A stretch of 64,000 nucleotides of DNA from Botryllus schlosseri (Eukaryota). The notes under the pieces were generated by a model, which did no database searches, had not been told where the DNA came from, and saw only the letters and a list, made by a program, of their open reading frames with translations. The position numbers and the translations under genes were made by a program. Below, in pieces: positions 5,235 through 64,000 of this stretch (its first letter is position 1; the number at the start of each line of letters is the position of its first letter). The stretch lies in assembly GCA_051294905.1 (NCBI GenBank), contig CM119371.1, positions 29,824,001 through 29,888,000 of the forward strand. The letters are read 5' to 3'.

Positions 5235-6827
5235 CAGGGGTCGGCAACCTTCTGCTAGTCACGGGCCAAATTTAGAGTGCACGACTTTTTGACGGGCCGG
5301 AATCTTTCTTAACACTATATTTAACGCTCACTTCGGTATATTACCCTACATTGCTTCAATCTCAATCATAAAAATCACAAAATGAGCAAAACACATGTAA
5401 TTACACTTCAACAACGCAGGATAAATGTGACACTTGGCGCAGCTTGCTTTGTGAAAGGTTTTCAACTTCTGGTAACAAGCCATATGAAGCAAGAATCATA
5501 CCATATTCTAAATGGACGTTGGAATACGTGATCTTAGCTTGTTCTCCGTGAATTTCATTGTTGCAAACTATTGTTGACATGCGTACGTGCTACCAAAAGT
5601 GGATGCCATTTCTTTTGCATTGTTGGTCAAGCTGTGATAAAGACCCGATTCAAGAACGAAGTCTTTGTCAAAGTCATGTAGCGATATGCTCTTTGTATGA
5701 AATTTGCCATTCAATTCAACTGCATCGCATTTCAAGAGGGCCCATTTGAAATTTCAAACGATGGTATTGGCGTCCGCATTAAACGGAGTACTGAGTAGTC
5801 AGAATTTATTTTGTAGGCCTACAGAACGAATGTCGGAAAAGCGGGTGGAAATCAGTAATTAAATTTCGTGTCACAGTTACAAATGTATAGTGCTGGTGCT
5901 ATTACTCTCCTCCAGTACAGGAAAGTGAGCATAATTTTATTTGTACATTCCCAGAGTCGTAGTTTTGTTTCAAATGCGTCTCAACATCTCATGTAGCCTA
6001 TTCAGTTGCTTTCCCCCAGTTGCAAATTCAACTTGTTTATATGTGACGTTAAATGTACTATACGAAAGCAATATTAGATACCCATTTTCTATTACAAGAT
6101 TATGAATCGGCGATGTTTGTATTTTCAAGGAAAGTTGCTATTTCATTTCTCAGTTCATACACTCGTGCAAGCATGGCTGCTCGACTTAATGCGCAAACAT
6201 GTCAGATACACAGAACATCGTCATATTGATTCTCTGCTTCTAGTAATATCTGGGGTAACTGTCGGTGATTCAGTTTGTGAGACAAAATCAGCTTTCACCA
6301 CAGTGTCTAAAACACTAATCAGGTTTATTGTCTTGGCGGACGATGTCTTCTGGTGAATTAAACTATACAAACGATAACCTACAAAGGCTAGTTATCAATG
6401 GTGAAACAGGGAGATTTGAGATTTTGTCATTGCGTCTGAGATGTTTGAAGCGTTTTTGAAGCATAGGAACGGCAACTTTATTGTCACACCCCACCAAAGT
6501 GGCAAACTCTTTAAAAACTATGGCATGGCCTACTTTCGGTTGCGCGATACACCCGCTTGATAAACACTGGTCTAGTTTACTTCACAGACAATCTCCATCT
6601 CCTACTTTTAGTACGAGATACTAGTCAACCGCACCAGTGTTATGGCGTAACAATAATAGACTAATACGACGTGTGCTACTTATATCGTAGCAATGCCGCA
6701 TTCTTTCCAAGCATTGCTGCGCTGCAGATCGGAACTCATTACGAAACGGCGTGCCGTATTCTTGTGGTAACTAATTATTTTGTCGCGGGCCGGATCCGGC
6801 CCGCGGGCCGTAGGTTGCCGACCCTTG
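5235..6827 (-). mobile_element. Internally deleted hAT/Charlie transposon
   Basis: TIR CAGGGGTCGGCAACCT; TSD ACCTAAGC/ACCTAAGA; carries a transposase relic. Confidence 0.88.
5430..5760 (-). pseudogene. hAT transposase C-terminal dimerisation domain relic
   Basis: Translates NAKEMASTFGSTYACQQ*FATMKFTENKLRSRI, matching the Charlie FGSTYxCExxFSxMKxxKxxxRSRL motif; stops and frameshifts present. Confidence 0.8.
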
Positions 6828-7966
6828 ACCTAAGATAACGTAATGTACTTCAATAACTGTTGAAGTCGATGAGACATCTGTGATCGATCAAATTTGTGTA
6901 CACCTTCTAAGAACTCTTGTGGCATGTCGGACACAAAAAAGCAAACAAACATTATTTGTGTCCGAAAAAAAGAAAGAAAGAATAACTTACAGTCACTATA
7001 ATAATAGCCTATATCAGGAGTGGACATTCTGTCCAACCATTTTACTAATCATGGCGGTATTTCGTTAATTTACGTAGACTACGTCCGCATTCTAGTGCCT
7101 AGTCGTAACGAACTAACTGAACGAAAATACCCATAGTAAACTGCCCGAGTCCATTTCATGCGAACTCCAGACCTACATATTTCATACTATCGGCTTACTA
7201 TATGCACTGAAATCGCGAGTAGTCCTGTCATGAAGAATTACTGGAATTCGTCTTGCATTCGCGCCAGTCGCGAAGAATTTTCAAATTCGTTGCTGAATTT
7301 CATCAATAATATTAGTAGTTTCATATATCACTATCAAATACTTAGCCTATGTCGGCACATCTGATCAAATTCTCCGGTAGAATTGATGGATGGAGTGTTT
7401 TGGAATTTTTGCACAACTTATAAATGATGCTGGGCCGATAGGTATTTGTCCCTTTTTCCATGACAAATACATTGAAGACGGGGCGGTAGAGGGCGAAACC
7501 CAGTTGGGCTTTTAGGATTCGCACGTTGCCGTTCAACATATTTCGAGCTTGAATCGCATCGAATGACCACTCGACTATACTTATCGATCACAAAATTCTA
7601 TGGACTATTTCTGGACTCAAAGCTATCAGGTTTGCGCCCAATACATCCACCTGGATCAGTTCTCAAATTTTTTTAGACACGCCCTACTTTATGATAGTGA
7701 AATATTTTGCGCCCACCTTATCGTCATATTACAAAATGCAACCAGAATGCTAGCAATCCCAACGTATAGTTTGATGACATGTAAGGTTATCACTGCTGAT
7801 GAGTGAATACTTAAATATAAAATTCGGACAATATACAGAACAACAAATATAAACTGGAGGCAAATCGCGCGGAGCGGGAAAAATATTTTCAGTTGACCGC
7901 AACTTCACGCACATCCCCCCTCTTCAGATGCTTTCTCAAGCTAATGTAATAATAAACCCAGTCGTA

Positions 7967-9590
7967 AGTAGTATAGTAGATCGGTCTGGGGGTGGCAGGG
8001 GCTCTTATGGGTGCACCCGACCGGTGCCGCGAAAACTCGTCCTGAACCGGTGACCCTTTTGACCCCCTCTCTCGCTCGTGACTCGTACTTTCAGACCCCC
8101 TTCCACCCGACCGGTGCCTTATGAGTGTAGGGATCTCTCGACCGGTGCCTCGAAACTCGTCTTGAACCGGTGACCCTTTTCGGTATAGGGATCACTCGAC
8201 CGGTGCCGCGAAAACTCGTCTTGAACCGGTGACCCTTTTCGGTATATGCATCTCTCGACCGGTGTTGAATATGTATCAAGTAAATAGTCATGTGAATGAA
8301 TCTTTGTTAATGTGTATATCGTGAAAACTCGTGGTCGTGACTCGCCTTTTTTTACTATAGGTGGTGACGGTGATTCACCTGCCGTGTATTCTTACGGGAT
8401 CTCTGGTGATTCGCCATGTGTTCTTTTGAGTGCGTCGGCATATCGCACTTTCGGGTAAAGACATCTCTCGCACGTCGTACTTTCGCATGTCGTACTTTCG
8501 CGTATAGGCTGTGTTGGTGATTCGCCATGTGTTCTTATGGTTGCGTCGGCATATCGTACTTTCGGGTATAGGCATCTCTCGCATGTCATATTGGAAACTC
8601 GTGTTGGCACATCGTACTTTTAGGTATAGGCATCTCTCGCATGTCGTACTTTCGCGTATATGCTGTGGTGGTGATTCGCCATGTGTTCTTATGGCTGCGG
8701 TCGTGATTCGCCCTTTCAGTATAGCCATCTCTCGCATATCGTACTTTCGGGTATAGGCATCACTAAACAGGAAATTCACTAATCTGCAGTGCATTGTGCG
8801 ATTTTGAAAACCAGACGTCGGTGGTTGTATTTTGACCTGTGTGACCCACTAAATACGGTCCGTTTTGGAAATTCGGAGCGCGCACTATCGCATCGATTAT
8901 TCCACTAATCCAGTCGATGCTATTACATTCAGCAGTATTCAGTATTCAGCAGCGACACGAAAAGCGACCAACAAATAACCGCGCTCGTAAATTAACACTT
9001 CAAAAAGTGTAAAATTGATTGCAAATCCCGCGATCGCTGACAAGATAATGTCTCGGGCATAACCATTTTTAGTGACTTGGTGTTACAAACATACCGATCG
9101 CTCACGCGGTGAAATTTTAGTAATCAGTTTGTCACAGAACTTGATTTCGCTGGTAAGATTTAATAAATACCGACTAACAGAACCATCAGTGTGGGTAACT
9201 TGAATAGCAACAAATTATCACTTATTTCCGCCCTAACCCTAATCCTTTGTGAGATTACCACATACTCAAAAAGGTGTGAAATAATTGTAAAATCCTACGA
9301 CCACTCACAGGGTAATGCTTCAGACATAGCGATCGCTCATGATTTGGTGTTACAGACATACCGATCGCTCACAAGGTAATATTTCCGCAATAAGTTTGTC
9401 ACAGAGCCGTCGCAGACGGTGATTCGTAAACCAACAATTTGACACTTTCTGGTGGTTGCTATATGTTTTGACACTTCGGAACGTGGTTGACTTTAGTTGT
9501 ATGATAAGAATCATGCGAATATTCAAGCAATGTGTCAATTTGTCAACTTGAAATGAAACTTACTACACAGCTCAAGTTGATTCGTATCTG
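7967..9590 (+). repeat. Left TIR (1624 bp) with internal subrepeats
   Basis: Reverse complement of 14859-16482. Contains ~59-bp ACCGGT-rich repeats (8019-8262) and GTGATTCGCCATGTG / CGTACTTTCGGGTATAGGC modules (8400-8760). Confidence 0.95.
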
Positions 9591-12500
9591 CATGTTTTAA
9601 ATCGGAAGGAAAATGTATTTTTACTCGGTTAAGTGCTGTGGTTTCAGTGTTTCCAGTGTCGTTGGTATTGTTAAACATTGTCGCCGGTAGCCGTTGGTAT
9701 ACTATTACGAGTGTGAAAACGATTTGCACTCCCTGTGCAGAGTATCGCGATAGTGAACATATTTTTCGCGTGACAAAACAAGATCGTTGTTCAAATGTTA
9801 ATGCATGCATTTCGATTACCGAGTTGCTGTACAATAGAGATGGCTCTACATTAGACCGTGCTGTGTACTTCGATTAAAACCACATGACCCCATGTAAATC
9901 TATTTGCACAACTCGATGATGTTGATATAGTGTTACTAAAATTAATTATTACCTATTTACACAACATAAAAATAACAGTTTATGTCGTAGTAAGTAAGTT
10001 TCTTGAACTCGTGCTTGATGGAAACGAATGGTGACAAGTATGCTTTTGTGTGAAAAATAATTATTTAGAGTAGTGACAGTTTGTGACCAGCGAATGCAAA
10101 TCGATCATGACATTACAATATACGCTTTCGTCAACATAACGACTTGGCGTAGAAACTCTTTCACGTTTTTTCAATAACTGGATTCTCGGGACTTGTTACT
10201 TGTACGATGTATCGTTGGTGTGCAAACTATAACGACCATTTTGTATGATAGTATGTTTTAGTTGAGTTGTATTGTTGTGAGGACAATCATGTGATGACTC
10301 AGCACTTTTCGTTAGCAAAGTAGATTGATTTGTGTGTAAGATGTACGCACCGTAACTAGAAAACGTATGTACTCTGTTGTTGGAGTAGCTGATTTATTGC
10401 TATGACATGGACATATCCTGCAGGCTTGGTTGGATGGTTTTTCTTACGAAAGATGACGCGACCTCGGTGTCGTAAATTGTGTTAACTAAACTCGGATGGA
10501 TACCACAATTGTGCTGGACTTACACATGGTATTCGCATACTGTACACATACAAACTTTTGTGTAAACAACTCTGGTGTTTCTGTTAATACTAGTTCTGTG
10601 TTGAACTACTTGATTATTAAGATACATGAACAACCATTCAGACAATAAAGTTCTTGAGGTATCGAAACAGTTTGAAAGCAACACCAATCATTGTACAGGT
10701 TTGTAGCATGGGAATATCGATTATTTTCGTTTACCATGAATATATTTCATATACCTTTGGTAAGAAATGAGTTGCGTGGGGTAATCATACACAACCTACT
10801 AAAGTTAAACTTGTAGCGTTTGATTGCCTACTTTTTTTTATCATTGTTTGTTGTTAAAAGACGACTGAGTTTACGTCTAAATGTAGTAAGCGGAGAAACT
10901 CAAGTAATAAATTTTACTCGTTTGAAAATATCGATCAATGAAGTAACAGTATCAATATGAGTGGTATATTATTTTTCGCGATATGCAACAAACCTTCTAA
11001 GTAAACTTGTCAAAAATGTATCATGTCATAGTCGGTTGTTATGAAATCGAAACAAAAGTACTTTGATTATCACGACAAAGGGAGTTGAGATGAATGCAGT
11101 ATTTCAGAAGTGAATGTGTATCGTTTGGTATGTTCAGCAATTACTAAATGACCAAAATATCAAACTGTGCATACAACTCGGTTAGTTAAACGATAGAGTT
11201 ACAAGTCGGATGTAATCTCGATTTACAGATGACATCTTGATGATGTAAAGCTCAACCACTCAAATGTGTTCATTGCAAAGTATTTGACACAAACAAAATA
11301 TCGAACGAAGACCCACCACTTGGTTTCATTACCGGGTGAGTGAAAATTGTTTTCTGTTTGCTAGGTATGATTTGCATTTAGAAAATAAAAACGAACTACA
11401 CCGATTAAGCGACGCTGTTTAATATCCGATGAGTGAGTGAAATTTCTTAGGGTTTGATTTAGCGAGTTAATTACCGGCGATTCAATCACATACGAGTAAC
11501 GTCTTTTAGTGGCAGAGTATTGTGACGACATTTACTTTGATGAATGACAATCTCCGATTTCTTTGGTCGTGAGCGTTCTACAAATATTTCCGGCATACAT
11601 TTAGCAAGCAACCTACAATATTCCTTTGTTATGGTAATGACTTTCACAAGTTTGGTTTTACGATTACAATTACTTTAGAAGATTCAAATGAATATTCATG
11701 ATCACTACTTTGAGCAAGAATACAAACACATTTTGCAAATTTCAGTGTAGCGCCTATTGCGATTTTGTTAATGCAATGAGTTTTGTGTATACTCAAGTCT
11801 AGTAGAATAGGATGCGTCCAGTAAAGATATTCCAAATTGCTTCTGTGTTGATCAAAGTCTTGAAGTGTAAATCCGTAGATTTCACAATGTCTTGGAGAGT
11901 GCGACCGGAATTATGTATTGATAGCGCGCTTCAAAGGGTACTCGATACCCAAAGTGATATTTTCACACTCTGTAAGTTGTGTGTGTTTCAATGCGCTGTC
12001 ACAAATCCCGACAATAAATCGTATCAATTACTGGATTCAATAGTAACGATATTGTGATATATTGACTCTACACTTAGTCGTTTCAATTACCCGTTGCGAA
12101 TCGGGATAATAAAACATTTTGTATTGGGTGTTCAATGTATGAATAATGGAATTATTGCATCTTTAGCGTTGTTTATCGCAAACGATAGATTTTAATAATT
12201 GTACTGGTTGTTGAATGTAATAATACCGATATTGCTCTTTCATCTTTAGTCTTGGTTACTGGAAATAATTACATTTGCAAAATATATTTCCTGATATCGC
12301 GATACGCAGAGTGATTTTTATCGAGGTGGAGTAATTCTCCAATCAAGAACATTTCAGACACGTATAGTTTTACAACTTAATATGTTAAGAACAATGGCAC
12401 TGAAAAGTTTGTTGCTGTCATAACATTTACCACAACGCCGTGTCTAATTAACGCGAATAATTTAATAATCAAGTCATGATCAACTATAACATATGTCAAA

Positions 12501-13143
12501 TCAATGTGTCAATCCTTATGTTTACAGCATGATAACTTTGAATATAACACCAGCGTTCGATTGTAAGAAATGAAGTCGCAACTACGTTGATCAGACTTTC
12601 AAATCTCGTATACTCAAACATAGTATGTTAATCTCAAGTCACCTGCACCGAGTAGAAATTACTTTTGTCTTACAAAATATATCGAGTAGTAATTACTTTG
12701 TCTTGCGAAATAGTAACGACTTTTACAGTTGAAAAAAAAAAGACGCGTCGTAGGGGTATGAATACAGCCGAGCTTGTTACGGACTTTAGGTTTTAGTGAT
12801 TGTATGGACTCGTGTATGCTTGGCTGTTTTCATACTGATAATGTTTGAGTTGATTGGGTGAGTTACAAACGGATTTACTTGGCAAGGTTTTTCCTTGTTG
12901 ACTCTTTGGAGTATGGTAAGATGGTAAGATGTCGATGCGTAATACTATTTCCGTTAACTCAATTGCAACAAAAAATAATCAGACAGCTCGTTCAAGGTTT
13001 CGACAAATAGATTGAAATATTCCGATTTAACTCATCGCGTCGCAACTCGATCGCGGTATGCACAAGTGGTTGTCAAGTAAGAAATATTTACAACAGGTGC
13101 TATTTCATTGATTGACTTGATTGTGTGTAGAAACACATTAAAG

Positions 13144-14287
13144 CAGGGGTGGGCAAACTACGGCCCGCGGGCCGCATGCGGCCCGCCACACCGTTCTGTG
13201 CGGCCCGCGAGAGTCTAAAGAAACTTTTTTTAAATATTGATGAAATGCATACTAAAAATCGAATTAATGCAGGGACTTGATTAAACTTTTTAGTATATTT
13301 CACCATGATATTTTTAAGGAAGTGGTTCTCAAACTGGTGGGCGCGCCCAACTTGAGGGGGGAAAGCATCTTAAGAAGGGCGCGAAGCTGAGATCAACTGA
13401 AAAATCTTTTCGCGCTCCGCGCGATTTACATCCAATTCACAGTTGTTGTTCTGTATTTAGTCTCAATTTCATATTTAATAATCTCTCATCCACAGTCGTA
13501 ACCTTCCATGCCATCAAACTACCCGTTAGGTTTGCTAGCATCCTGGTTGCGTTTTGTGATATGACGAGAAAGGGGACACGTAATCTTTCACCATCGTAAG
13601 GGGGCAAAGTTTGGTCTCTTGCAAAGTTTGAAAACCACTGTTCTAAGGTAAATAATTCCTAGATTATTTTTCATGTTTAATATCTGGCGCGACAGCCCGA
13701 TAATAGAGCTCACGCAGTTTGAAAGGTTCAAACTGCTAAAAATCGCAGAAATCCTGAACGAGATTGACGTAATTCGGGTCACGAGTGTGATTTCAGATTG
13801 GCCACTCCAGTTTCAATTTTTTCAGTGAGGTTCTTATAAAAAACGATTCGCGCTTGTCTTAGGTAGATTCGTTCTCTGTATGCGTAGAATTAGGGTATTT
13901 ATATTTTATCCACACACTGTACAAACGTGTTTGAAGCTAACATGGTTATGATGCTGTCAGCATTGTGTATCCAGGAACTGAACCAAAAGTGGAATTAACA
14001 AATCTATGAACCGATCGCTGCTGACACCGACTTTCATCTCTATAGTTTTGACAAATCGGTTGTTGAGGTCGACCAGCCTATGAAATCTCGCCACTGTTTC
14101 TGGCGCATGTACGATATCATCAACGAAATGCTTGGTTTGTCTTTTAATAAGCATCTACATGTCATCAATATATAATCAAATACCAATATTGCGTTTTGGT
14201 TTATAATCCCAATTTTATATAGTGCGGCCCGCGAATGGATTCAGATGTTGAATGCGGCCCGCGAGCTCAAAAGTTTGCCCACCCCTG
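13144..14287. mobile_element. hAT MITE nested in the Polinton-like element
   Basis: TIR CAGGGGTGGGCAAACT; perfect TSD CATTAAAG at 13136-13143 and 14288-14295. Confidence 0.92.
13320..13640. mobile_element. Smaller hAT MITE nested in 13144-14287
   Basis: AGTGGTTCTCAAACT...AGTTTGAAAACCACTG; TSD TTTTAAGG/TTCTAAGG; relatives at ~7655-7935 and ~46978-47250. Confidence 0.8.
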
Positions 14288-14858
14288 CATTAAAGTATCG
14301 CGATAGCATAGTGAAATTATTTACTGAAACTCTATTTGACAAACGGAAAACTCAGTCGTGAATAGAGTTGTAAGGTTTCATTACTTGTTTCAAATCAATA
14401 TGCGTATAATCTTTAAATATGACTGGGTTGAAAGTTGGTAGTCATGTTTGTCAATCTATTTCAATTCAGACTATGTCAAAGCCCAAATATTTCATTTTGT
14501 ATTATCTGGATTTACCTTTAGTAGCCTATACATCTCGCGAGTGGATTCCGACGCCGTACTATAACATTTTTTGATTATTAGGTTTCAAGGATTTTCATGA
14601 TAGAGTTGACAAGTGATAGGAGTTTGATTTCAAGTTGATAAAGACAATAACTGTATAATGCACATACTTGTGATTCTTGATTCTTGTAGAGTTATAGTTG
14701 GTATTGATTCGATAGGTGTGAAAACGGCGGCGCGCAATGTGCGAATAATTCGATGTGGCTAAAAGTCGGCGTCAGTAATATTCAGGTTACGGTCGAATCA
14801 AAAGATCCCGTTAAAAAGATTTCTCAAATTAATTAGAATTGTACCGAATTAACACATT

Positions 14859-16482
14859 CAGATACGAATCAACTTGAGCTGTGTAGTAAGTTTCATTTCA
14901 AGTTGACAAATTGACACATTGCTTGAATATTCGCATGATTCTTATCATACAACTAAAGTCAACCACGTTCCGAAGTGTCAAAACATATAGCAACCACCAG
15001 AAAGTGTCAAATTGTTGGTTTACGAATCACCGTCTGCGACGGCTCTGTGACAAACTTATTGCGGAAATATTACCTTGTGAGCGATCGGTATGTCTGTAAC
15101 ACCAAATCATGAGCGATCGCTATGTCTGAAGCATTACCCTGTGAGTGGTCGTAGGATTTTACAATTATTTCACACCTTTTTGAGTATGTGGTAATCTCAC
15201 AAAGGATTAGGGTTAGGGCGGAAATAAGTGATAATTTGTTGCTATTCAAGTTACCCACACTGATGGTTCTGTTAGTCGGTATTTATTAAATCTTACCAGC
15301 GAAATCAAGTTCTGTGACAAACTGATTACTAAAATTTCACCGCGTGAGCGATCGGTATGTTTGTAACACCAAGTCACTAAAAATGGTTATGCCCGAGACA
15401 TTATCTTGTCAGCGATCGCGGGATTTGCAATCAATTTTACACTTTTTGAAGTGTTAATTTACGAGCGCGGTTATTTGTTGGTCGCTTTTCGTGTCGCTGC
15501 TGAATACTGAATACTGCTGAATGTAATAGCATCGACTGGATTAGTGGAATAATCGATGCGATAGTGCGCGCTCCGAATTTCCAAAACGGACCGTATTTAG
15601 TGGGTCACACAGGTCAAAATACAACCACCGACGTCTGGTTTTCAAAATCGCACAATGCACTGCAGATTAGTGAATTTCCTGTTTAGTGATGCCTATACCC
15701 GAAAGTACGATATGCGAGAGATGGCTATACTGAAAGGGCGAATCACGACCGCAGCCATAAGAACACATGGCGAATCACCACCACAGCATATACGCGAAAG
15801 TACGACATGCGAGAGATGCCTATACCTAAAAGTACGATGTGCCAACACGAGTTTCCAATATGACATGCGAGAGATGCCTATACCCGAAAGTACGATATGC
15901 CGACGCAACCATAAGAACACATGGCGAATCACCAACACAGCCTATACGCGAAAGTACGACATGCGAAAGTACGACGTGCGAGAGATGTCTTTACCCGAAA
16001 GTGCGATATGCCGACGCACTCAAAAGAACACATGGCGAATCACCAGAGATCCCGTAAGAATACACGGCAGGTGAATCACCGTCACCACCTATAGTAAAAA
16101 AAGGCGAGTCACGACCACGAGTTTTCACGATATACACATTAACAAAGATTCATTCACATGACTATTTACTTGATACATATTCAACACCGGTCGAGAGATG
16201 CATATACCGAAAAGGGTCACCGGTTCAAGACGAGTTTTCGCGGCACCGGTCGAGTGATCCCTATACCGAAAAGGGTCACCGGTTCAAGACGAGTTTCGAG
16301 GCACCGGTCGAGAGATCCCTACACTCATAAGGCACCGGTCGGGTGGAAGGGGGTCTGAAAGTACGAGTCACGAGCGAGAGAGGGGGTCAAAAGGGTCACC
16401 GGTTCAGGACGAGTTTTCGCGGCACCGGTCGGGTGCACCCATAAGAGCCCCTGCCACCCCCAGACCGATCTACTATACTACT
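14859..16482 (-). repeat. Right TIR (1624 bp)
   Basis: Reverse complement of 7967-9590; no net indel and no mismatch in spot checks. Confidence 0.95.
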
Positions 16483-16627
16483 GTCGTACAAAGACCATAC
16501 AAAATTCGGAGTGAGTTCAGCTACAACTTTTAACTTTCAACTCTCGGAAAAAATAAAACTAAAACGGCACCAAACCATCTACAAATCATGAAGCGATATG
16601 GATTAATATTGAGATATATAGTGATTA

Positions 16628-16848
16628 CCGGTGTTGAGTTGACTCGTTTTTATATTTGATATGTTTGAGCATGAGGCAACAAAACATTTCACCAAATATC
16701 AACGAAGTCGGAAAATGAGTGTATAGGAATCTGCCACTGGCAGACGATCAGTTGAAAACGATTGATTCACATTCCTTGGCGAATTTGAGGGGGTACTGGT
16801 GCCTGCCATTGTTAATATTCGGATTTTCGGAATCAGTGCAACAATAGC
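16628..16848 (-). pseudogene. Degenerate exon, paralog of ~24385-24665 and ~59755-59983
   Basis: Shared motif FN*SSASGRF / FQCSYASGRF / CQCSSASGER; ends H-cg|GTAAT; in-frame TGA at the conserved Cys position. Confidence 0.45.
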
Positions 16849-19189
16849 CTTTGATTGATATTAGTTATTATAAATTCTGAGCTATTTATGCTGAATTGCA
16901 TTATCACAAGTGCGGCACGACTCGTGACATTTGGCTTTAAAAATAACTCTGTTCTATGTCCTTTATCGTGCCAGTTGCTCGTGATAAGAGGCACGCGCAA
17001 AGTTCTCCGCGTCAATAGACGTTACTATGAATGTATTGTTGAAAACTATATTCAGTAAAATACGTAAATGTGTCTATATCACATGGGTTGGGGCAAAACT
17101 GTGTCATGGGACCAGTGTTGTAACTATCTGACAATGCTCAGAGTCTCAAGTCAATCTCAATTTTATAGTTTTGACTCGAGTCAAGTCGAGTCATTTTCAA
17201 TTCACCACCTAGTTAAGTCCGAATACGAGTCATCGAGCAGGGTACATGTAAGGTAGGTTTAGTAATGCTATATAGGATGTTAAGACGCTTCATATGAACG
17301 GAAACAAAACCATTTCGAATACGAATGTGATGTCGCTTTTTTCTATCACATCAAAGATTTTCATAATCTGTGAATAAAAATCTGCTAAAAACAGCTTGTT
17401 CTATGACGTTTCTTGCTGTTTGGTCATAGCTACAAATATTGTGAAGTCATCAGAGGTCGTCAAAGTACTTAACATATGTACTCAAGTAGAAGTAGAAGTA
17501 ACGGCGTCCATTTCTACTAAAGTAGAAGTAAAAGTAACTTTTTATAAGTATCTGAAAAGGTAATTATTCTAGGCCTGATTTTTGCTATCAGGATCAATTT
17601 ATTATTATTTTCTTCCCTTCAGAACATCACAAGACTACGATACAATTAAAAAATAGGAAGGCGTCGAAACGCCTTGGAGTAGTCTTTGAAATCAGACACG
17701 GAGCTGGGCCTAGGCGATGTAAAGAAGAGGTATGCACAGCACACTCAATGAGACATAAAGCGACATTGAGATTGTGAAGCATTTGAAAATAAAAAGCTTT
17801 AGCATTTGGTGTTTCAATGGTTCGGAGAGAGAGCCACATGGACATGGAAAAGATTGTTAATTTTGCTCATGTTTTTATTTATTCAATTTCAAAAATCAGC
17901 TGTGTGATTCAATGCAAAAATTAATTTTCTCCTATGATATACATAATCGCTATTCCAGAATAACTGTTATATAGATATGACTGGCCTGGACATTATATGT
18001 TCATTAAAAATAAATTTCTCAATTCATGCCTCATATATGTTACGATGATGCCCAAATGTGTCGTCAGGAGCGTTACGCTTTAATATTATAGATTCGCCAC
18101 CATCTATCTTTGTGGAAATGGATATTCGTCCCTCGCTCATATCAAATAAACGGCACGAATATTCAAGACACGACCGCGTATTTCAAGAAATGATGCTACA
18201 TACTTCGCTTCAAAATAATATAAGTATTCCTAATTTAAACAAAAATCGTATGATGAAGGGTCATTTTGTTACTGTTTATTACTAGCCTGCAGTTAATATA
18301 TACACACGACAGATGACGGTTTTGCACGATAATTGAGCTACATTAGAACTGAAACTGAGGGGTCGGCGGGGGTCCGGGGTGGTCAAAAACGGGTTCACGG
18401 AGACAAAAAGGTTCGGAACCACTGCTCTAGATGTTTTTGTGCATTTCAAGTATCTCAGCCACTGTTTTCAATTCGAGATTTCAGGTACATTCATAACGCA
18501 AACTCGACTGCACATCAGTGCTTTTCAACATGTGGGTTAGCACGCACTTGTGCGGCTGACAAACGTGGTATGGATGTGTGCGGATAAAAATCATAAATTA
18601 TTGCTACTTATTATGACATGGAATAATTCAAACAAACCTAATAGAAAATTCAGGTGCAGTGGCTCCCTAACTTTTGTCGTTGCGGGGCAATTATAACACT
18701 AATTTGACTTGCCACGCATCGCTAATCGTAGCTCGTACAACAACTTTATCTTGCACAAGCCCCAGTGGAATAATATTTGCGCACTATTGTTATTATTATT
18801 ACGTCATCAAAAGTCCAGTTCGAAAACGGGTGTAGTAGCAGACATACAGTGCATCAGGACGTATGAGCCTTCGACATGCTTGCATAAATTACGTACTAAA
18901 GTATCGTTTAGCACTAGACACGAAGATGGTGGTAAACGCTATCATTATAGACTCACATTGGCAAGTTACTGTAACAAAAACTGATCCCCTGCAGGTGTTT
19001 TAAAGTATCGGCCGCGAAGGAATAATTTTGGGTCGCAAAAATAGTTCCATGCGATAGTTTTTGCATGTCAAAAGTCACTGTGTTGAGTACTGTATCCAAT
19101 AAGCGGGACACCCAGGAAATATAGCTTGATCATGATAACGTTCCAACCTTTGTATTACACACATTGGTTTGAATTCATGATAAGATTTA

Positions 19190-19503
19190 GGAATAGGACG
19201 TAGGAATAATTTTGTTCTTGATGTTTTGCAGACATATGCACCGATTCAAGATATATTCATGCACACGATCTGTGCATTAGCATACCGTGAGTGCATGATG
19301 TGAATATGCCGCTGAAAAAGGGAGCACACATAGCCTTCTAAGGCTTTCTGAGTCTTTCATCTCCCGTGCAAGCTATCCGCCAAGCGGCGACGCCGTGGAA
19401 ACAAGCAGTACTACTAATCAGGTTTTTGGTATGACCCATGGTGGGATTTAACCCACGTCCTCCTAGAAATTCGGTCTCTCCGCCATTACGCTATCTTGTC
19501 GGT
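19190..19503 (-). mobile_element. tRNA-derived SINE (diverged copy)
   Basis: Same head (CCATTACGCTATCTTGTCGGT on +) and body as 4670-5007. Confidence 0.75.
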
Positions 19504-20517
19504 AATTTGTCCGACGGGTTTCTCTGGAAAACACCGTCGCAGACAGCTGGGATGCTTTATGGTAGGTGTGTGCAACGACAGGGTGCGAGCCTATGAGACG
19601 CATTCATTTTGAGGTCAAACCCTTCTGCGCCGGAATACAACAAAAATAACTAAAACTTATTAGGGCGAAATGGGTTTTAGTTCACTATAGTTGATATGAA
19701 AACCAGGGGAAATAGTTGTCTTTTTAATGCGATACTCCATGGCCTAAACCGGTAGACGATTGGTTGAACATCTGACTAAAATATTGTTAAGTATCTTCAT
19801 TTCCTTTTCGTATATCAATTTTCGGTTTGTTTGTAAGATGATTTTCTTTTGCAAAAAAAGTGCGGATGGTGCTCACAGAGGATGGAAAGTACTGGTCTAG
19901 AACATTGGTATATAACAGTCAGACTTGTACAAACTACCCATTTAGTTAGTTGACGGGCAACTAACTAACGGGTTTTTGAGTAGTTCTAGTTCTAGTTCGA
20001 GTCGCGGATTTTGAAAATTGAGTAGTTGTGGTTATAGTTTTAGTTGCATATTTTGAAAATTCGGTAGTTCTAGTTCTAGTTTTAGTTGCAGATTTGAAAA
20101 AATATTAGTTGTCGAACAACTAGAAAACATGTGTCGTGGTTTTGAGCGAATTGACATGCCGGTGTTCTGTTGAATGATGTTTGTACAGCCATTGCTCGCT
20201 CAGAACCATCACTGCTAGTTGCGTAGCCAGCGGGTGGCTTTTCTGGGTAGGACGTTCTCCCATTTCAAGTTAGAAACCCCGTTCTTTTGAGGTGTCGGTC
20301 CTATGTCTGATATTTCCGATGAAATGAAAATCAATATGTTGCCTAGGAGAATGAAATTCAGTTCAGTACGGTACTGAACATTTAATGACTTGGGAACCCC
20401 TATGTTTGCGATTGCGCATGTTTTTTCTATCCTTTATTTGATAACGTTTTTAAAGGAATCAGTTCGACTTTCGACTGTCCTATTAACGTTTTTAGAGGAA
20501 TCAGTTCGACTTTCGAC

Positions 20518-21512
20518 CAGTGTTGGGATCAAGTCACTACCTTCGAGTCACGAGTCATCTCGAGTCATTGCAGATTTTGACTCGAGTCAAGTCAAGTCAA
20601 TCGATTTTCAAAGGTGACTCGAGTCAAGTCAAGTCACTCGTTTTTTGGTGGTGACTCGAGTCAAGTCGAGTCAAGTCAAGTCAAGTCACGAGTCAAGTCA
20701 CAATTCAAGTCAAATTGAGTTTTTGACGTACGAGTGATGATTCAAAGTCATTACAATTTGCTAGCTGTGTGAAAGACAGATTAATTGATCATTTATCTTG
20801 AATCAAATAACGAATATCTAGCTAAATATACATGCAAAAAGACGCTGTATCCCTCACGCACACGTAGAACTGCTAATAAAATACGGGAGTTGTACAGCTA
20901 CATGATACAGTCAGTTATTATCATCCAAAATATAGGACCTAATCCGAAGCTTCGAGAAGTTGAAACAAATTGATATGGTACAATAGCCTACACTACCCGT
21001 CACACATCCGTGAGAATATAAACGCACCAACTATATTTGTTCGATTTAAATCATATAAGATGGTTGGTAAATATGAGCACTGCGCAAGGTGAGCATTGAG
21101 CCGTCTAAGACACAGAGGCACATTTCTATTTAGATTAATCCACTACTACTACTTCGACAACGTAAGCTGTGATCGTTTAGTTTTCGGTCAATTTATTTGT
21201 GATGTAACAATGAAGGATCAGTGTAACATAGAATCAGTGAATGACTGGTTACCCTCACAAGTGACACCGGCGTATCTCGAACAATCCGAACATACACAAG
21301 ATACAGTGATTTATTCGACAGTGTTTACTTGATGACTTGAAATTGACTCGTAAATATTACTCCGAGTCACGAGTCAATGCCCATTTTTGAAGCTCCGAGT
21401 CAAGTCAAGTCAAGTCATTTTCCCAAAGTGACTCGAGTCAAGTCAAGTCATACGAAAAAGTTGACTCGAGTCTGACTCAAGTCAAGTCATGACTCGAGTC
21501 ATCCCAACACTG
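20518..21512. mobile_element. hAT-type MITE with GACTCGAGTC/(CAAGT)n subterminal arrays
   Basis: TIR CAGTGTTGGGAT; TSD CTTTCGAC. Confidence 0.9.
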
Positions 21513-29722: not shown

Positions 29723-30257
29723 ACAAGCAGACTGGTTGAAATGAAAGAATCTTCGCATCCGTCAAGATCTCAAGGTCAAGGCCCAAGGGGTTGAAGAGTA
29801 TACAGTCCGAAAATCAGAATGCGATATATATCGACAGCCATTAGAAAGTGAAGCTGACATATAACTCGACCGACAACGCTCTGCTCGAAGGAAACAGTAT
29901 GCCAAGCAGACATGGGGTAATCGCGATTAGTAATCGTAATCGATTACGACGATTACAGCATTTCCAAGTAATCGTAATCGCAATCGATTACATTCGAAAA
30001 AAATCCAAAGTAATCGTAATCGTAATCGACTACTTCGCATATCTAATCGATTTTTTTGTAAAAGAACGATTACTTTTATTTGTACAATGAATATGACATA
30101 ACCGAACATTCGAGAACAAGGAAGAAATATAATACCAGGTTATTGATAGCGCAAGCGGTTGATTTTCGAATGCCACTGCTCATTATTACGTCAGAAATAT
30201 TAGCTTTGCTCGTCCTTGCGTAAGAAGTATCCACACGTAGTAAATATATATTCGATG

Positions 30258-30839
30258 CAGGGTTGTAATAACTCGAGTCATGACTCGACTCGAGTCAGAC
30301 TCGAGTCACGATTTTCTGATGACTCGACTCGACTCGAGTCATTTTCTCAAAATACGGAAATGACTCGACTCGACTCGAGTCAATCTGTGTATTGACTCGA
30401 CTTGGACTCCAGTCATTGCGCATGACTCGAAGCAAGTCATTGACTCGAGATTCAGACGCCAAGACCGACATTTCATTGTAATTTCGAAGCCAACACACTA
30501 TTGGGATTTCGTTAGTTGGTACTGGTGCTTGAAAATGCGACCAGAAACTGCTAAAAGTGAGGAAAATTGATATATTATAAATGCGAACCATTCATTATCA
30601 CCAAACAGAGTTTAAAAAGTGGTTTAGGAAGACTTTAACTGGAAACTGAGCAGTCAACACAATGACTTGGACTCTGACTCGAGTCATAATATCATGACTC
30701 GGACTCGATCCTCTGTTCGCTGACTTGGACTCGGACTTGACTCGGTGGGAATTGAAAATGACTCGACTTGACTCGAGTCAAAAATATAAAAGTGAGATTG
30801 ACTTGTGACTCGCAGCCTTGTGACTTGGTTACAACCCAG
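30258..30839. mobile_element. GACTCGAGTC-type MITE nested in copy A
   Basis: CAGGGTTGTAA...TTACAACCCAG; TSD ATTCGATG; empty site in copy B. Confidence 0.88.
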
Positions 30840-31423
30840 ATTCGATGTATATTGTTGTGTGATAGTTAGAACAGTGTAAGCCATTCTGTATATCAGGTTA
30901 TCAATACACTCCAGACGCCATTACCGCGCAGCAAGATAATAATCACCACTCTCCCTAGTTTCAAATAGTAACTTATGTATTGATGTTTGGTTATGCTTGT
31001 AGTTAAACGCAGTTTGACCGTTGCTGCTTGGCGAGCAGTAGGCATATATATGTAGTATACGTATGTATTGTACGTACACCGGACAAAGATTTGAAGTTTT
31101 GTACTCGTCAAATAAATCATTACGATGGTTTAAATCAACAGCTGCGCTTATATATCATAACCGAGCCGTTCTTTGCCGTTTCTCGTAACGGCATAACGGC
31201 AGCTTGCAGTATCTGTATTAAGTGGAAGGTAGAATTTAAAGTTCACTTTATCTTATCCTCATATGACTACTTCAAACGGTCGCCAATCGTTATTTCACAA
31301 TTCTCCACTCGACATTTATACCTGCCGCCATAGCCCTCCGCTTATGGTCCATGTAAGCGTGGGTTGTAGGTACAATCAGAACCAAAACAGCAATTCGTCC
31401 CCCACTCCAAACGTTGGTATTGG

Positions 31424-31983
31424 TAAGGTTGTAACCAAGTTTCAATGTTCCGAGTCACAAGTCAATCTCACTTTTATAGTTATGAGTCGAGTCAAGTCTA
31501 TTCATTTGCAATCCCCCCCCCCCCCCCGAGTCAAGTCAGAGTCCAAGTCCAAGCCAGCTAGTATAGGGTCGAGTCCGAGTGATATTTTTTGACTCGAGAA
31601 CGAGTCCAAATCGTTATGTTCTCAGATCAGTTTTCTGATCAATCCGGTTCAACCCACTTTTTTCAACTCGATCTGCTCGAGTGATATAGAATGGCTCGTG
31701 TTCATAATATAGTAATTTTCATCAGTTTTCACAGTTTACGGCCCAATTTCCAAGTATCGGGACTGATAGACGAAATACAAATTATGTGGTAACATTACTA
31801 TTCTTCGAAGCTACATGGAATGTCTGTATTGGCTGTTCTAGTCTCGAGTCATATGACTTGGTTCGAGTCATGCAAAATGACTCGAGTACAAGTCGAGGAT
31901 ATACAAAAAATAGCTCGAGTCAAGTCTAGTCACCAAAAAATCGCGACTCGAGTCGAGTCATGACTCGAGTCATTACCACCCTG
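31424..31983. mobile_element. GACTCGAGTC-type MITE shared by copies A and B
   Basis: TSD GGTATTGG; internally deleted counterpart at 35960-36145. Confidence 0.85.
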
Positions 31984-33072
31984 GGTATTGGGGCCCCGTA
32001 GGGTGGTCAGTTTTCAAGTTGATGACTGAATTTCGTCAATAATATTGGTAATTGCATTATCTTGCTATTCATTCAGATTTACCGGTAGAGCTGGGGGCAA
32101 GTAATTCATAATTATAGCATATGGTATGTTGTTTTAATTTCATTATTGTATGTTGTTAATTCGTGACCTCCCGTCTTTTATATAATCAAAAGATACTGCA
32201 GTCGCCCAAACGTAGCAGACTAAAAGAAAAACTTTCGAGAGACGCACACACAAATTGCCATATCTTCATTCCTCTGTGAGTGCCCCGGGTGGCATTTGCA
32301 TTGTTGGGGCTCAGATTGGAAGGACCGGACTATCCGCCACGCCCACAGAGCGCGGCTACTGACAATAGACACATACCCAAAGTTTTGGCCAAGGTCATTC
32401 TTTGGTAGCACACTTTGTGGAGTTGCATGTTGGCTGAAATTGCTTACGTCTTTTGGTGTGTCTTGGCGGGGTAATGACCGCCACCGAAATGCCTATTCCT
32501 ATAAATTATGCATGTTTTTTTTTTCTTGAGGGGGAGAGGTATCCATTTCAAAATCAAGCTATTTAGAAACATAAAATCCCGAAGCTCGAAGAAAATTTTC
32601 AAGTTAATTAACTCTCTTGAAAATATGTTGATTTACGAAATACTTTTGAGTCCCCTTAGAGCTCGCTCCCGGTCCTATTGGGGAGTTTGGGGTGTGGCAG
32701 TTACCGACCTGGCAAGAATGCAAATCGTTGGGTGCGACGAATAGTCCTGCATAGAGGTGGGCAATGGGTGCATTATGACGTAACAAGCAAATGACGTATG
32801 ATTTATAAAGAAAGTTGTTATCTCATTTTACCTTTTCATCGCAAGCCTTATTTATATTGTCTTCCAATATCTCTTCTGAAATTAGTTCTAAGAAGTAGAC
32901 CAAATGTAATCGGGAGTAATCGTGATTACTTTTGAAAAGTAATGGTAATCGTAATCGACTACTTCCTGATTGGGCTGTAATCGTAATCGTAATCGTAATC
33001 GCGGGGTTCACAAGTAATCGTAATCGCAATCGATTACATTCGGGAAGTAATCACCCCATGTCTGATGCCAAG

Positions 33073-34126: not shown

Positions 34127-34134
34127 GTTCAATG

Positions 34135-37100: not shown

Positions 37101-37206
37101 AATCGTAATCGACTACTTCCTGATTTTGCTGTAATCGTAATCGCGGGATTCACAAATAATCGTAATCGCAATCGATTACATTCGTGAAGTAATCACCCCA
37201 TGGCTG
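34135..37206 (+). mobile_element. Non-autonomous hAT element, copy B
   Basis: TIR CAGGCATGGGGT; TSD GTTCAATG; collinear with 29907-33064. Confidence 0.9.
34528..35414. mobile_element. hAT MITE nested in copy B
   Basis: TIR CAGGGGTGTCAAAC; TSD GTGTAAGC; empty site in copy A. Confidence 0.9.
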
Positions 37207-39084: not shown

Positions 39085-39398
39085 TTAGGAATAGGACGTA
39101 GAATACTTTTGTTCTTGATGTTTTTGGGGCATATACACTGATTCAAGATATATTCATGCACACGATCTGTGCATTAGCATACCATGAGTGCATGATGTGC
39201 ATATGCCGCTGAACGATAGAGCAGATATAGCCTTAAGGCTTTTTATTTCTTTCACCACCCGTGCATGCCAACCGACAAGCGGCGAAGCCGTGGAAACCCG
39301 CAGTACTACTAATCAGGTTTTTGGTATGAATCATCAGGGGATTTAACCCAAGTCTTCCTAAAAATACGGACTCTCCACCATTACGCTATCTTGTCGGT
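39085..39398 (-). mobile_element. tRNA-derived SINE (duplicate of the 19190 copy)
   Basis: Same family, with the same flanks as 19190-19503. Confidence 0.75.
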
Positions 39399-39642
39399 AA
39401 AATGTCCGGCTGCATCTCTGAAAAACACCGTTGGAGACCGTTGGGATTCTTGGTTGTGTGTGCAACGAGTGGGTGCGGACCTATGAGACGCATTCATTTT
39501 GAGGCCAAACCCTTCTGCGTCGGGATACAAAAAAAAGCTTATTTGGGCGAAATGGGTTTTATTGCACTACAGTTGATATCAAACCAGGGAACCAGGGACC
39601 AGGGACAGTTGTCTTTTTAATGAGACGCTCGATGGACTAAAC

Positions 39643-60982: not shown

Positions 60983-61686
60983 CTGAAATCATTACTCCGG
61001 CTTTTTTTTTACGAATGAAAGAGTCCTCGGCATTGTTGAATTGATTTATGAGAACAATATCGTAGTTCACTTCTAGGTGACGATGCTGTAAAGTTGTGTT
61101 TCCTGGAAAGTAAGACTGTTGGACTGGGAGTGGTGCAGTGCTGGTCCAGTTTTTACGGATGGTGAATATATTATTTTAGCATTTCTTTAATACCTATACA
61201 GCCCTGTCCTGTCCACGCAATACACCGATTCCTAATTTGAGTAAGGATAAGCAAGGCCACAAGGTATTGGAGATGAATAGACTCTAAATATACATGTACG
61301 TCATTTAATGACGAGAGCGTTGCAGTTGACTTTCGTCAGTAAATTATGCGAAGCTTACATTGTTTCGAGTGCTCCTCGTATAAGCGTATCAATATCTTTG
61401 ATAGAATTTCCGTTTGTCGTGTGCGAGTTAACAAGGGTGGATGTAGCCGCAACAATGGCAACATGCAGATCGCGTCACAGGGGGATTTTAAAGTACTTGG
61501 CTGGGTATTCCGTTTTTGACACAAGTATCAGTATCAGCTTATTAATATTTTCCTCAATACAAAACACCACAAACTGCGACACAATGAGAAGATCGAAAGG
61601 TGTCGAAACGACTTGGAGTGGTCTTTGGGATCAGACACCCACCTTGGCCTAGGCGAAGTAGAGAAGAGGCATGTACATTGCACAGT

Positions 61687-64000
61687 AGTAGTATATATGA
61701 TCGGTCTGGGTGTGCCTGGGGCTCTTATGGGCGGGGTGGTGATGTGCCTGAAAACCCGGGGTGGTGATGGTACCCTTTTAGACCCCCTTGTGGTGGTGAT
61801 GTGCCATGTGTTCTTATGGGTGCGGTGATGATGGTACCCATTCAGGTATAGGCTGCGGCGATGATGTGCCGTGAAAACTCGTGGCGGTGAGTCGTACTTT
61901 CAGGTATAGGCTGCGGTGATGATGTGCCTATGCGGTGATGATGGTACCCTTTCAGATATATGCTGTGGCGATGATGTGCCCACGGATTCTTGTGTCGTAG
62001 TGAACTAATGTTGTTGGTATAGGCTGCGGTCATGAGGTGATGTTGATTACGAAGTATATTGATCACGTGATTGATCCTTAGTTATTGTGTGTACCCCAAA
62101 TTCTTATATATGACCGATTCGAGGTAATCCTAACGTTTACGGTGAGTGCGACTTCAAGATATCGTTATTCTTATGGCCGCGGCGGTGATTCGTACTTTCG
62201 GGTATAGGCCGCGGGCGGCATGTCGTACTTCCAACAGAAAGGGTGTGAAATAGTTTGCTAAATATAGGAATCACTTGCAAGGTAATATTTCGGTAATTAG
62301 TTTACCACAGAGCCGGCGGTAGACGGCGATTCGAATACCAACAATATCCGCGTTCACATACTAACACTTCAAAAAGGTGTGAAATATTTGTAAAATCCTA
62401 CGAGCGCTCACAAGATAACACATCAGACATAGCCATCTCTCGCGGTTTGGTGTTACAGAGGTAGGAATCACGCACAAGTAATATTTTGGTAATTAGTTTG
62501 TCACAGAACCGGCGTAGACGGTGATTCCAATACCAGCAATAGCCGCGTTCACAAACTAACACTTTAAAAAGGCGTGAAATAGGTTGCAAATCCCGCGATC
62601 GCTGACAAGATAACACCTCACACATAGCGATCACTTGTGACTTGCTGTTACATACATTCCAATCGCCACAATGTAATATTTTGATAATCAGTATGTCACA
62701 GAACTGGATTTCACTGGTAAAATTTAATAACTAACGAATAACAGAACCGTCGCAGACGGTGATTCGAATACCGACAAATTCTCACTTATTTCTGATCCAA
62801 CCCTAATCCTTTGCGAAGTTGACGCTTATTCAAAAAGGTGTGAAACAATTGTAAAACCCCACGTCGCTGACAGGATAACGCATCAGACATAGCGATCTAG
62901 TTATAGCACGTTGTCGGAATCCATTCGCGTTCTATAGGTAAACTGAGGTAATCCGAAACGAAATATTTTGACTTGGCGTAGTGTGAATTGAAATAGGATT
63001 GACAAACTTGACTACCATCTTTCCAAGTGCCATTTCGATATTATACGCACATTGATGTGAAACAACTAATGAAACATTACAACTCTATTCACGATCCGGC
63101 TTTCCGTTTGTCAAAGAGATATTTTAACATCTTACCATACTCAAAAGAATTATTCACAACATTAACCGGTGTTGAAAATATAGTTTTCACTTACTTGATT
63201 TTATCACTACAACTCGCAAACTTGAATTAATTCATCCTGGTTGTATTCATATGACCGATAATTTTTATTCAACTGTAAAAGTCGTTACTATTCTGTAAGA
63301 TAGAGGAATTACTACGCGGTATATTCTGCAAGACAAAGTAATTATTACTCGATATGTTTTGTAAGACAAAAGTAATTACTCTTCGGTACAGGCGACTTGA
63401 GATTAACATAATATGTTTGAGTATACGAGATTTGAAAGTCTGACCAACGTAGTTGAGAATTCATATCTTACAATCGAAAGCTGGTGTTATATCGAAAGTT
63501 ATCATTCTGTAATTTATCATTGACCGTACAGAGTTGCTGACATTCCAATGTCTTTTACGCTGTAATAAACGGATTCATTTGTGATAATTTAATTCTCGGT
63601 TATTGTTCAGACATTCAAATCTCGTATACTCAAAATGTAATTGGTTTATGTCAAGACGTATATGCAGCGATTAGTAAATACTTTGTCTTACAGAATAGTA
63701 ACGACCTTTACAGTTGAATAAAAATTATCGGTCATATGAATACAACCAGGATGAATTAATTCAAGTTTGCGAGTTGTAGTGATAAAATCAAGTAAGTGAA
63801 AACTATATTTTTAACACCGGTTAATGTTGTGAATAATTCTTTTGAGTATGGTAAGATGTTAAAATGTCTCTTTGATAAACGGAAAGCCGGATCGTGAATA
63901 GAGTTGTAATGTTTCATTAGTTGTTTCACATCAATGTGCGTATAATATCGAAATGGCACTTGGAAAGATGGTAGTCAAGTTTGTCAATCCTATTTCAATT
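61687..64000. mobile_element. Second, diverged Polinton-like non-autonomous element, cut by the window end
   Basis: Starts AGTAGTATATATGATCGGTCTGGG..GGGGCTCTTATGGG like element 1. 62230-62900 resembles 9000-9480; 62910-63510 resembles the reverse complement of 14330-14555 and 12525-12733. Confidence 0.8.
62986..64000. repeat. Long inverted repeat (arms ~62986-63300 and ~63686-64000+), axis ~63493
   Basis: Mirror ORFs 63027-63230(+) and 63756-63959(-) differ at 2 of 67 aa. Confidence 0.9.

What the first reader, a model, noticed from the sequence alone, without database searches (positions are those of the whole stretch)
7961..16488. Gene-less 8.5-kb mini-Polinton with pristine 1.6-kb TIRs and a 6-bp TSD
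Seen: apparently identical 1624-bp TIRs, AGTAGT/ACTACT ends, a perfect GTCGTA TSD, and a 5.3-kb interior with no ORF of 100 aa or more. Known: Polintons/Mavericks have long TIRs, AG..CT ends and 6-bp TSDs, and encode pPolB, integrase and often capsids over 15-20 kb. Inference: a non-autonomous, satellite-like Polinton mobilised recently in trans, implying an active helper elsewhere in the genome.
Basis: partly seen in the sequence, partly recalled or inferred. Interest (0 to 1): 0.8.

Follow-up and report, generated by a model that had tools for sequence, protein, structure and literature searches.

The report
Lopsided gene-less Maverick hitch-hiker element
This 8.5-kb insertion has two identical mirror-image ends with the signature of virus-like Maverick (Polinton) transposons, shows no recognisable gene and belongs to a many-copy family; it is likely a lopsided, deletion-shortened hitch-hiker that a helper Maverick copied and inserted recently.

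Summary
The element spans 7967-16482 (8,516 bp), with 1,624-bp TIRs identical at every base, AGTAGT/ACTACT ends and a perfect GTCGTA duplication. It has no interior reading frame of 100 aa and no protein or RNA family hit. It is not a one-off: its whole length is a high-copy, diverged repeat, and in 4 of 4 public runs contigs leave the terminus exactly at 16482 into other flanks. Depth dips over about 11.3-12.3 kb. So it most likely is an asymmetric derivative of a family of palindromic, gene-less Maverick satellites. This scan reported that family many times on other DNA of this genome (unchecked notes). A helper, an empty site and other copies' TSDs could not be tested because no genome was held. 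Whether this 8.5-kb form moved as such or was shortened after insertion is open. New variant of a known kind; interest 0.45.

The parts
7961..7966 (.). left target-site duplication GTCGTA
7967..9590 (+). left TIR, 1,624 bp, starts AGTAGT; holds 59-, 15- and 32-bp tandem repeats and larger internal duplications (8404-8590/8515-8743; 8997-9138/9264-9405)
9591..9606 (+). imperfect continuation of the TIR (12 of 16 bases match the other arm); possible microhomology at a deletion junction (inferred)
9607..11300 (.). left interior: non-coding, high-copy family sequence with arm-like depth and no mirror copy in this element (right limit approximate)
11300..12400 (.). low-depth segment, likely the family's unique centre (limits approximate); two overlapping stop-free frames of 83 aa (+, 11806-12054) and 88 aa (-, 11647-11910), no homologue found
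12400..13135 (.). right interior, inner part; 12522-12739 and 12899-12933 match the arm and turn-round region of the palindromic relative (91% over 191 bp)
13144..14287 (.). nested composite hAT-type MITE: 16-bp perfect TIR, perfect 8-bp TSD CATTAAAG (13136-13143, 14288-14295); family label recalled from TIR/TSD pattern
13320..13640 (.). second MITE inside the first, TIR 14 of 16, TSD 7 of 8; the same nesting recurs at 46835-47247 (81%)
14296..14858 (.). right interior, outer part; 14331-14565 matches both arms of the palindromic relative (77-82%)
14859..16482 (-). right TIR, 1,624 bp, ends ACTACT
16483..16488 (.). right target-site duplication GTCGTA
61684..64000 (+). related element cut by the window end: same terminus (87% over 45 bp), palindromic (62986-63324 vs 63660-64000, 329 of 339 identical), predicted about 3.6 kb if symmetrical

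Best explanation
It is a gene-less element with Maverick/Polinton end signals from a many-copy family, likely a lopsided derivative of palindromic family members that a helper Maverick probably copied and inserted recently. Shown: the ends, the TSD, identical arms, no recognisable gene, high copy number, the same terminus joined to different flanks, and a palindromic sibling sharing terminus, TIR modules and right-interior DNA. Inferred mechanism: (1) the helper's protein-primed polymerase starts at the (AGT)2 ends; (2) the displaced single strand folds into a panhandle through the TIRs, which resets both arms to one sequence; (3) the helper's retroviral-type integrase inserts the linear copy with a 6-bp duplication. 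Inferred history: each arm of a longer palindromic ancestor lost a different block, leaving left-only and right-only DNA around a unique centre. A hAT-type MITE landed in the right arm, and only the outer 1.6 kb can still pair.
For: (AGT)2//(ACT)2 with a perfect 6-bp TSD is the commonest vertebrate Maverick end type (PMC8097293 passages). Other 6-bp-TSD groups end TA..TA or TG..CA (PMC10045372 passages). Arms differ at 0 of 1,624 bases (95% bound 0.18%). Yet at TIR sites 15433 and 16020 about 95-100% of laid depth in 4 of 4 runs carries another base, while both arms here agree, so the arms were equalised after lineage-specific changes. In 4 of 4 runs, 14 contigs (3+6+2+3) leave the terminus at 16482 into DNA that disagrees among them (agreement 0.53-0.68). 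One X5 contig at 12941-13078 has depth 5,288 against 38-50 for flank contigs. The sibling at 61684 mirrors 14331-14466, 12899-12933 and 12683-12739 in both arms and turns round at DNA matching 12522-12556. Summed depth over 11363-12264 is 2.8-3.4 times lower than the left interior and 2.3-2.7 times lower than the right interior in 3 of 4 runs, and 13.5 and 8.9 times lower in the fourth. The panhandle step is from adenovirus (PMC9863843 passage); jumping-back at the end repeats is from PMC8097293.
Against: No autonomous helper was seen here: no genome was held, and the terminal motif matched nothing in viral or metagenome contigs. No empty site was among the 20 of 54 loose-end rows shown. Other copies' TSDs cannot be read from one-ended contigs. 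The tool states that summed depth is no copy number, so the 'arms twice, centre once' reading is a hint. Left and right interiors show no decayed mirror homology (scores 46-53 against shuffle maxima 40-56, control 257), and the left interior is absent from the sibling, so the two-deletion history is not shown. No second copy with the same junctions was found, so the 8.5-kb form may not have moved as such. Vertebrate Mavericks keep about 17 kb +/- 10%, read as a capsid constraint; 8.5 kb is half of that.
Confidence: 0.6

Rival explanations
1. Same family and same helper, but a full 13-15-kb palindrome inserted here and was then shortened and hit by the MITE in place; the 8.5-kb form never moved.
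For: Earlier scan notes describe centre-deleted and internally deleted copies (unchecked). Long perfect palindromes are deletion-prone (recalled). The outer MITE has a perfect TIR and TSD, so it may be younger than the insertion. No twin with the same junctions was seen.
Against: Two large losses and one insertion would have to fall within less than 0.18% arm divergence, or arm-to-arm conversion would have to keep 1,624 bases identical. The deleted sibling in the window has arms at only 97%.
Confidence: 0.2
2. It is a two-ended element: either a classical internal deletion of an autonomous Maverick that kept its left and right sub-terminal DNA, or a mosaic of two family branches with unrelated arms. 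Palindromic members would then be one-end duplications of such forms.
For: No mirror homology inside. Both interiors start right at the TIR end, with 16 bp of fading similarity.
Against: If most members were two-ended, left, centre and right should have similar depth and the two TIRs together twice that. Instead the centre is 2.3-3.4 times lower in 3 of 4 runs, and the summed inner TIR is close to the interior values. No remnant of a core gene was found in six frames.
Confidence: 0.12
3. It is a non-autonomous element of another cut-and-paste superfamily or a foldback element, and the Maverick-like ends are coincidence.
For: No coding link to Mavericks was found here. Long TIRs with internal tandem repeats also occur in foldback elements (recalled). 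IS3EU/GingerRoot also make 6-bp TSDs.
Against: IS3EU/GingerRoot end TA..TA or TG..CA. Ginger1/2 end TGTNR with 4-5-bp TSDs and TIRs up to about 270 bp. The ends here are the commonest Maverick motif.
Confidence: 0.05
4. The identical arms are an assembly or polishing artefact.
For: No contig spans the element. The one junction contig reaches only 25 bases into it, short of the tool's 31-base rule, and may come from the assembled sample.
Against: A perfect TSD at both ends and a 5.3-kb non-mirrored interior are not fold-back products. The same assembly keeps 10 differences in 339 bases between the sibling's arms. The terminus is a real boundary in 4 of 4 runs.
Confidence: 0.03

Closest known systems
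Autonomous Mavericks/Polintons (vertebrate survey PMC8097293; nematode survey 10.1101/2023.08.22.554363; passages)
   Same: (AGT)2//(ACT)2 ends, 6-bp TSD, long TIRs
   Different: No pPolB, integrase, ATPase, protease or capsid gene found; 8.5 kb against 12.7-24.6 kb; TIR 1,624 bp against 46-1,447 bp; high copy number against a median of eight elements per vertebrate genome
polB-less, cargo-carrying polintons of butterflies (10.1101/2025.02.07.637071, passages)
   Same: Lack a core gene, carry a nested transposon and appear to stay mobile; other butterfly polintons in that paper have TIRs of about 2 kb
   Different: Those keep other canonical polinton genes, and the 2-kb TIRs encode hexon and protease; this element has no recognisable gene
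Palindromic Maverick satellites of this genome (earlier scan notes only; unchecked)
   Same: Maverick ends, no core genes, near-identical arms, many copies; the in-window sibling has that shape
   Different: Mirror arms make up 38% of this copy rather than most of it; sequence identity to those noted copies could not be tested (look-ups by sequence were blank)
Adenovirus ITR panhandle replication (PMC9863843, passages)
   Same: Model for how terminal inverted repeats serve as origins and pair on the displaced strand
   Different: An analogy; no replication intermediate was observed here
Non-autonomous Polinton entries in Repbase / Kapitonov and Jurka 2006 (recalled; paper not held)
   Same: I recall that non-autonomous Polinton families are listed there
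   Different: Could not be read, so their structure was not compared

Membership tests
Autonomous Polinton/Maverick | pPolB and retroviral-type integrase genes | tested here: not met
   0 real Pfam hits in 6 of 6 frames read through stops; longest interior frame 94 aa, like shuffles
Autonomous Polinton/Maverick | ATPase, protease, major and minor capsid genes | tested here: not met
   No ORF long enough; Pfam and PHROGs blank; very decayed remnants cannot be excluded
Autonomous Polinton/Maverick | length about 13-25 kb | tested here: not met
   8,516 bp
Polinton/Maverick ends | 5'-(AGT)2//(ACT)2-3' or (AG)3//(CT)3 termini | tested here: met
Polinton/Maverick ends | 6-bp TSD | tested here: met
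   GTCGTA; chance 2e-4
Polinton/Maverick ends | long TIR | tested here: met
   1,624 bp, a little above the 1,447-1,500 bp upper values
Non-autonomous Maverick derivative | same terminus at several insertion sites | tested here: met
   14 contigs in 4 of 4 runs leave at 16482 into disagreeing flanks; sibling at 61684
Non-autonomous Maverick derivative | each copy has its own 6-bp TSD; empty site exists | tested here: inconclusive
   Contigs show one end only; no empty-site row among 20 of 54 shown
Non-autonomous Maverick derivative | autonomous partner with shared termini in the same genome | not testable with these tools
   No genome held; claimed in unchecked notes
Palindromic satellite family (scan notes) | mirror arms cover most of the element | tested here: not met
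   38%; no interior mirror homology
Palindromic satellite family (scan notes) | homology to a palindromic element with the same ends | tested here: met
   In-window sibling, 71-91% over terminus, TIR modules and right interior
Palindromic satellite family (scan notes) | small conserved gene in a unique centre | tested here: inconclusive
   Low-depth centre present; the two candidate frames found no homologue
IS3EU/GingerRoot, Ginger | TA..TA or TG..CA termini | tested here: not met

The most novel reading that the evidence does not exclude
Maverick satellites need neither palindromy nor unit length. This asymmetric 8.5-kb form, with a host transposon as cargo, was itself replicated and integrated by a helper. 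That would confine the cis-acting origin and integration signals to at most 1.6 kb at each end, and show a natural helper-dependent 'gutless' Maverick system that ferries other transposons around an animal genome.
Probability: 0.35. Interest if true: 0.65.

Novelty: new variant of a known kind. Interest (0 to 1): 0.45.

Why it matters
Maverick replication and integration are inferred almost wholly from gene content. A gene-less, many-copy passenger family with freshly equalised ends shows what is needed in cis and bears on whether copies spread inside the cell or through size-limited capsids. This lopsided copy is useful because it separates the ends from the palindrome. If twins of it exist at other sites, mirror symmetry and a 13-17-kb length are dispensable. 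If not, it is a decaying copy of a family already flagged.

Tried and rejected
No whole genome was held, so copy counting, TSD lists and a helper search were not possible. Pfam on 6 of 6 frames gave only a Trehalose_PPase match at E 0.07, below cut-off, rejected. PHROGs gave 0 in 6 of 6 frames of 9591-13143. Rfam gave 0. Protein homologue searches were blank for 3 of 3 queries: centre minus frame, centre plus frame and the TIR frame. Atlas look-ups gave no usable hit for 2 of 2. The deep HMMER search covered one frame of six over 11251-12450. Its one hit, P0002 (E 2e-5), is a BACON-repeat protein scored from 10 weak stretches with no BLASTP alignment, rejected. The terminal motif gave 0 hits in viral and metagenome contigs. 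A 21-base interior word gave 0 viral hits and 5 metagenome hits; 5 of 5 are chance, with no flanking homology. No RNA holder was listed and no RNA run was laid, so expression is untested. The flanks do not form one split repeat, so there is no in-window empty-site control. TTTCGCG words (E2F-like, recalled) occur 4 times per TIR but 0 times in the sibling; not pursued. Kapitonov and Jurka 2006 was not held. Passages of PMC5718144 and PMC2871265 added nothing. Ten literature searches listed no title or abstract start describing a wholly gene-less or palindromic Maverick family; most subscription journals and Repbase are outside the library.

Full report
Observation. The element proper is window 7967-16482 (8,516 bp), framed by GTCGTA at 7961-7966 and 16483-16488. 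It begins AGTAGT and ends ACTACT. The arms match at 1,624 of 1,624 bases and fade out over 16 further bases, of which 12 match. The TSD has a chance of about 2e-4, and zero differences bound arm divergence below 0.18%. The interior's longest stop-free frame is 94 aa, against a median of 99 aa in 100 shuffles. Six frames read through their stops gave no real Pfam hit. PHROGs gave none over 9591-13143 and Rfam none. A 139-aa ATG frame lies over the TIR's tandem repeats and has no homologue.

Positions 13144-14287 are a nested MITE with a perfect 16-bp TIR and a perfect 8-bp TSD. It holds a second MITE (13320-13640, TSD 7 of 8). The hAT label is recalled from that TIR/TSD pattern. The same nesting occurs at 46835-47247 at 81% identity, so the composite probably jumped in as one unit. 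Without it the element is about 7.4 kb.

It is a family, not a one-off. No genome was held, so I used public runs. Twenty listed runs from 10 studies and three organism labels hold part of the stretch. Laying 4 of them over 5500-19000 showed the whole element to be a diverged high-copy repeat. One X5 contig at 12941-13078 has depth 5,288 against 38-50 for flank contigs, and listed contigs differ from this copy by about 5-10%. Closer relatives may exist: 43,883 of 187,370 laid X1 contigs are 99% or more alike, most presumably short. Laying 4 runs on 16395-16800, 14 contigs (X1 3, X5 6, X12 2, X14 3) leave the terminus exactly at 16482 into DNA that disagrees among them (agreement 0.53-0.68). 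One X1 contig matches 16458-16689 without a difference, but it reaches only 25 bases into the element and X1 may be the assembled sample. No empty-site row was among the 20 of 54 loose-end rows shown.

The sibling and the shape of the family. A second element starts at 61684 with the same terminus (87% over 45 bp) and the same TIR modules. It is a palindrome: 62986-63324 mirrors 63660-64000 at 329 of 339 bases. Read inward, it follows this element's right end: TIR, 14565-14331, 12933-12899, 12739-12522. It then turns round. DNA that is single in our element is therefore mirrored arm DNA in the sibling. Summed contig depth over 11363-12264 is 2.8-3.4 times lower than the left interior and 2.3-2.7 times lower than the right interior in 3 of 4 runs, and 13.5 and 8.9 times lower in the fourth. 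That fits a centre present once between arms present twice, though the tool warns that summed depth is no copy number. The left and right interiors here show no mirror homology above shuffles, and the left interior is not in the sibling. Earlier scan notes on other DNA of this genome describe several hundred 13-17-kb palindromic gene-poor elements with Maverick ends, shortened copies, one mosaic, a small centre gene and at least 54 pPolB loci. These are unchecked AI notes. They changed my reading, but I could test only the palindromic sibling, the multi-site terminus and the low-depth centre. Look-ups by sequence were blank. The two candidate frames in the centre found no homologue. The one deep-search hit was a repeat-protein artefact.

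How it most likely works. (AGT)2//(ACT)2 with a 6-bp TSD is the commonest vertebrate Maverick end type. The repeats are expected to serve the jumping-back start of protein-primed replication (PMC8097293, passages). In adenovirus the displaced strand pairs its terminal repeats into a panhandle that acts as a new origin (PMC9863843, passages). I infer that a helper's polymerase and integrase do the same here. One observation fits. At TIR positions 15433 and 16020, about 95-100% of laid depth in 4 of 4 runs carries another base, yet both arms of this copy agree. So the arms were equalised after lineage-specific changes; gene conversion could also do this. I infer that the ancestor was a longer palindrome whose arms lost different blocks, leaving 1.6 kb that can still pair (38% of the length). 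Helper, replication intermediate, deletion history and movement of this exact form are all inferred, not shown.

Rivals. Decay in place after insertion of a full palindrome (0.2) needs two large losses and a MITE insertion within less than 0.18% arm divergence, or continued arm conversion. A two-ended or mosaic origin (0.12) fits the lack of mirror homology but fits the depth pattern less well. Another superfamily (0.05) fails on termini: IS3EU/GingerRoot end TA..TA or TG..CA, and Ginger ends TGTNR with 4-5-bp TSDs (PMC10045372, PMC2836005, passages). Artefact (0.03) is unlikely because the TSD is perfect, the boundary recurs in 4 of 4 runs and the assembly keeps differences between the sibling's arms.

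Comparison with what is known. It is not an autonomous Maverick: core genes and length fail. It works like a non-autonomous Maverick derivative. In print I saw passages on polB-less butterfly polintons that stay mobile with transposon cargo but keep other genes (10.1101/2025.02.07.637071). I also saw C. elegans loci with TIR and pPolB but no integrase (10.1101/2024.01.15.575659), an apparent absence of non-autonomous copies in the anole (PMC3014272), and Tlr once read as a non-autonomous derivative (PMC4028283). General size and gene content come from passages of PMC6431247 and 10.1101/2023.08.22.554363. Ten searches listed nothing on a wholly gene-less or palindromic family. However, I recall non-autonomous Polinton entries in Repbase and could not read Kapitonov and Jurka 2006. 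No supplements were read; those of the bioRxiv papers are closed and might list such elements.

Verdict. Real feature, new variant of a known kind, interest 0.45. The family is of real interest for Maverick biology. This copy adds one testable point: whether a lopsided half-size form can move.

Noticed in passing
window 61684-64000: A second, shorter element of the same family: same terminus, 195-bp repeats in its TIR, palindromic with 97% identical visible arms and an older 83% inner palindrome (63357-63447/63603-63695). Predicted to end near 65300, beyond the window.
   Followed up: partly
window 40108-41035 and 46098-46652: Two arrays of a 15-bp unit in inverted orientation about 5 kb apart, foldback-like, flanked by pieces of the composite MITE; no clear TSD found.
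   Followed up: partly
window 6781-6827, 7689-7935, 34528-34594, 39644-40100, 46685-47247: Further copies or pieces of the composite hAT-type MITE found inside the element (75-87% identity); one lies about 25 bp left of the element's TSD.
   Followed up: partly
window 18013-19749 and 37933-39642: 1.75-kb direct repeat pair at 85% identity, an unannotated dispersed repeat.
   Followed up: no
window 29906-33064 and 34134-37206: A roughly 3-kb duplicated block (86-92%) built of MITE-like pieces with GTAATC repeats.
   Followed up: no
window 20517-21512, 45057-46021, 54106-55009: Three copies of a roughly 1-kb element with AGTCA-rich sub-terminal repeats.
   Followed up: no
window 7967-9590: The word GTACTTTC occurs 6 times on one strand of each TIR, twice in the sibling and twice in 45 kb of other DNA; a candidate protein-binding repeat.
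   Followed up: no
runs X12 and X14: The family terminus also occurs in runs labelled organism B and organism C, so it may be shared by related species or by differently labelled samples.
   Followed up: no
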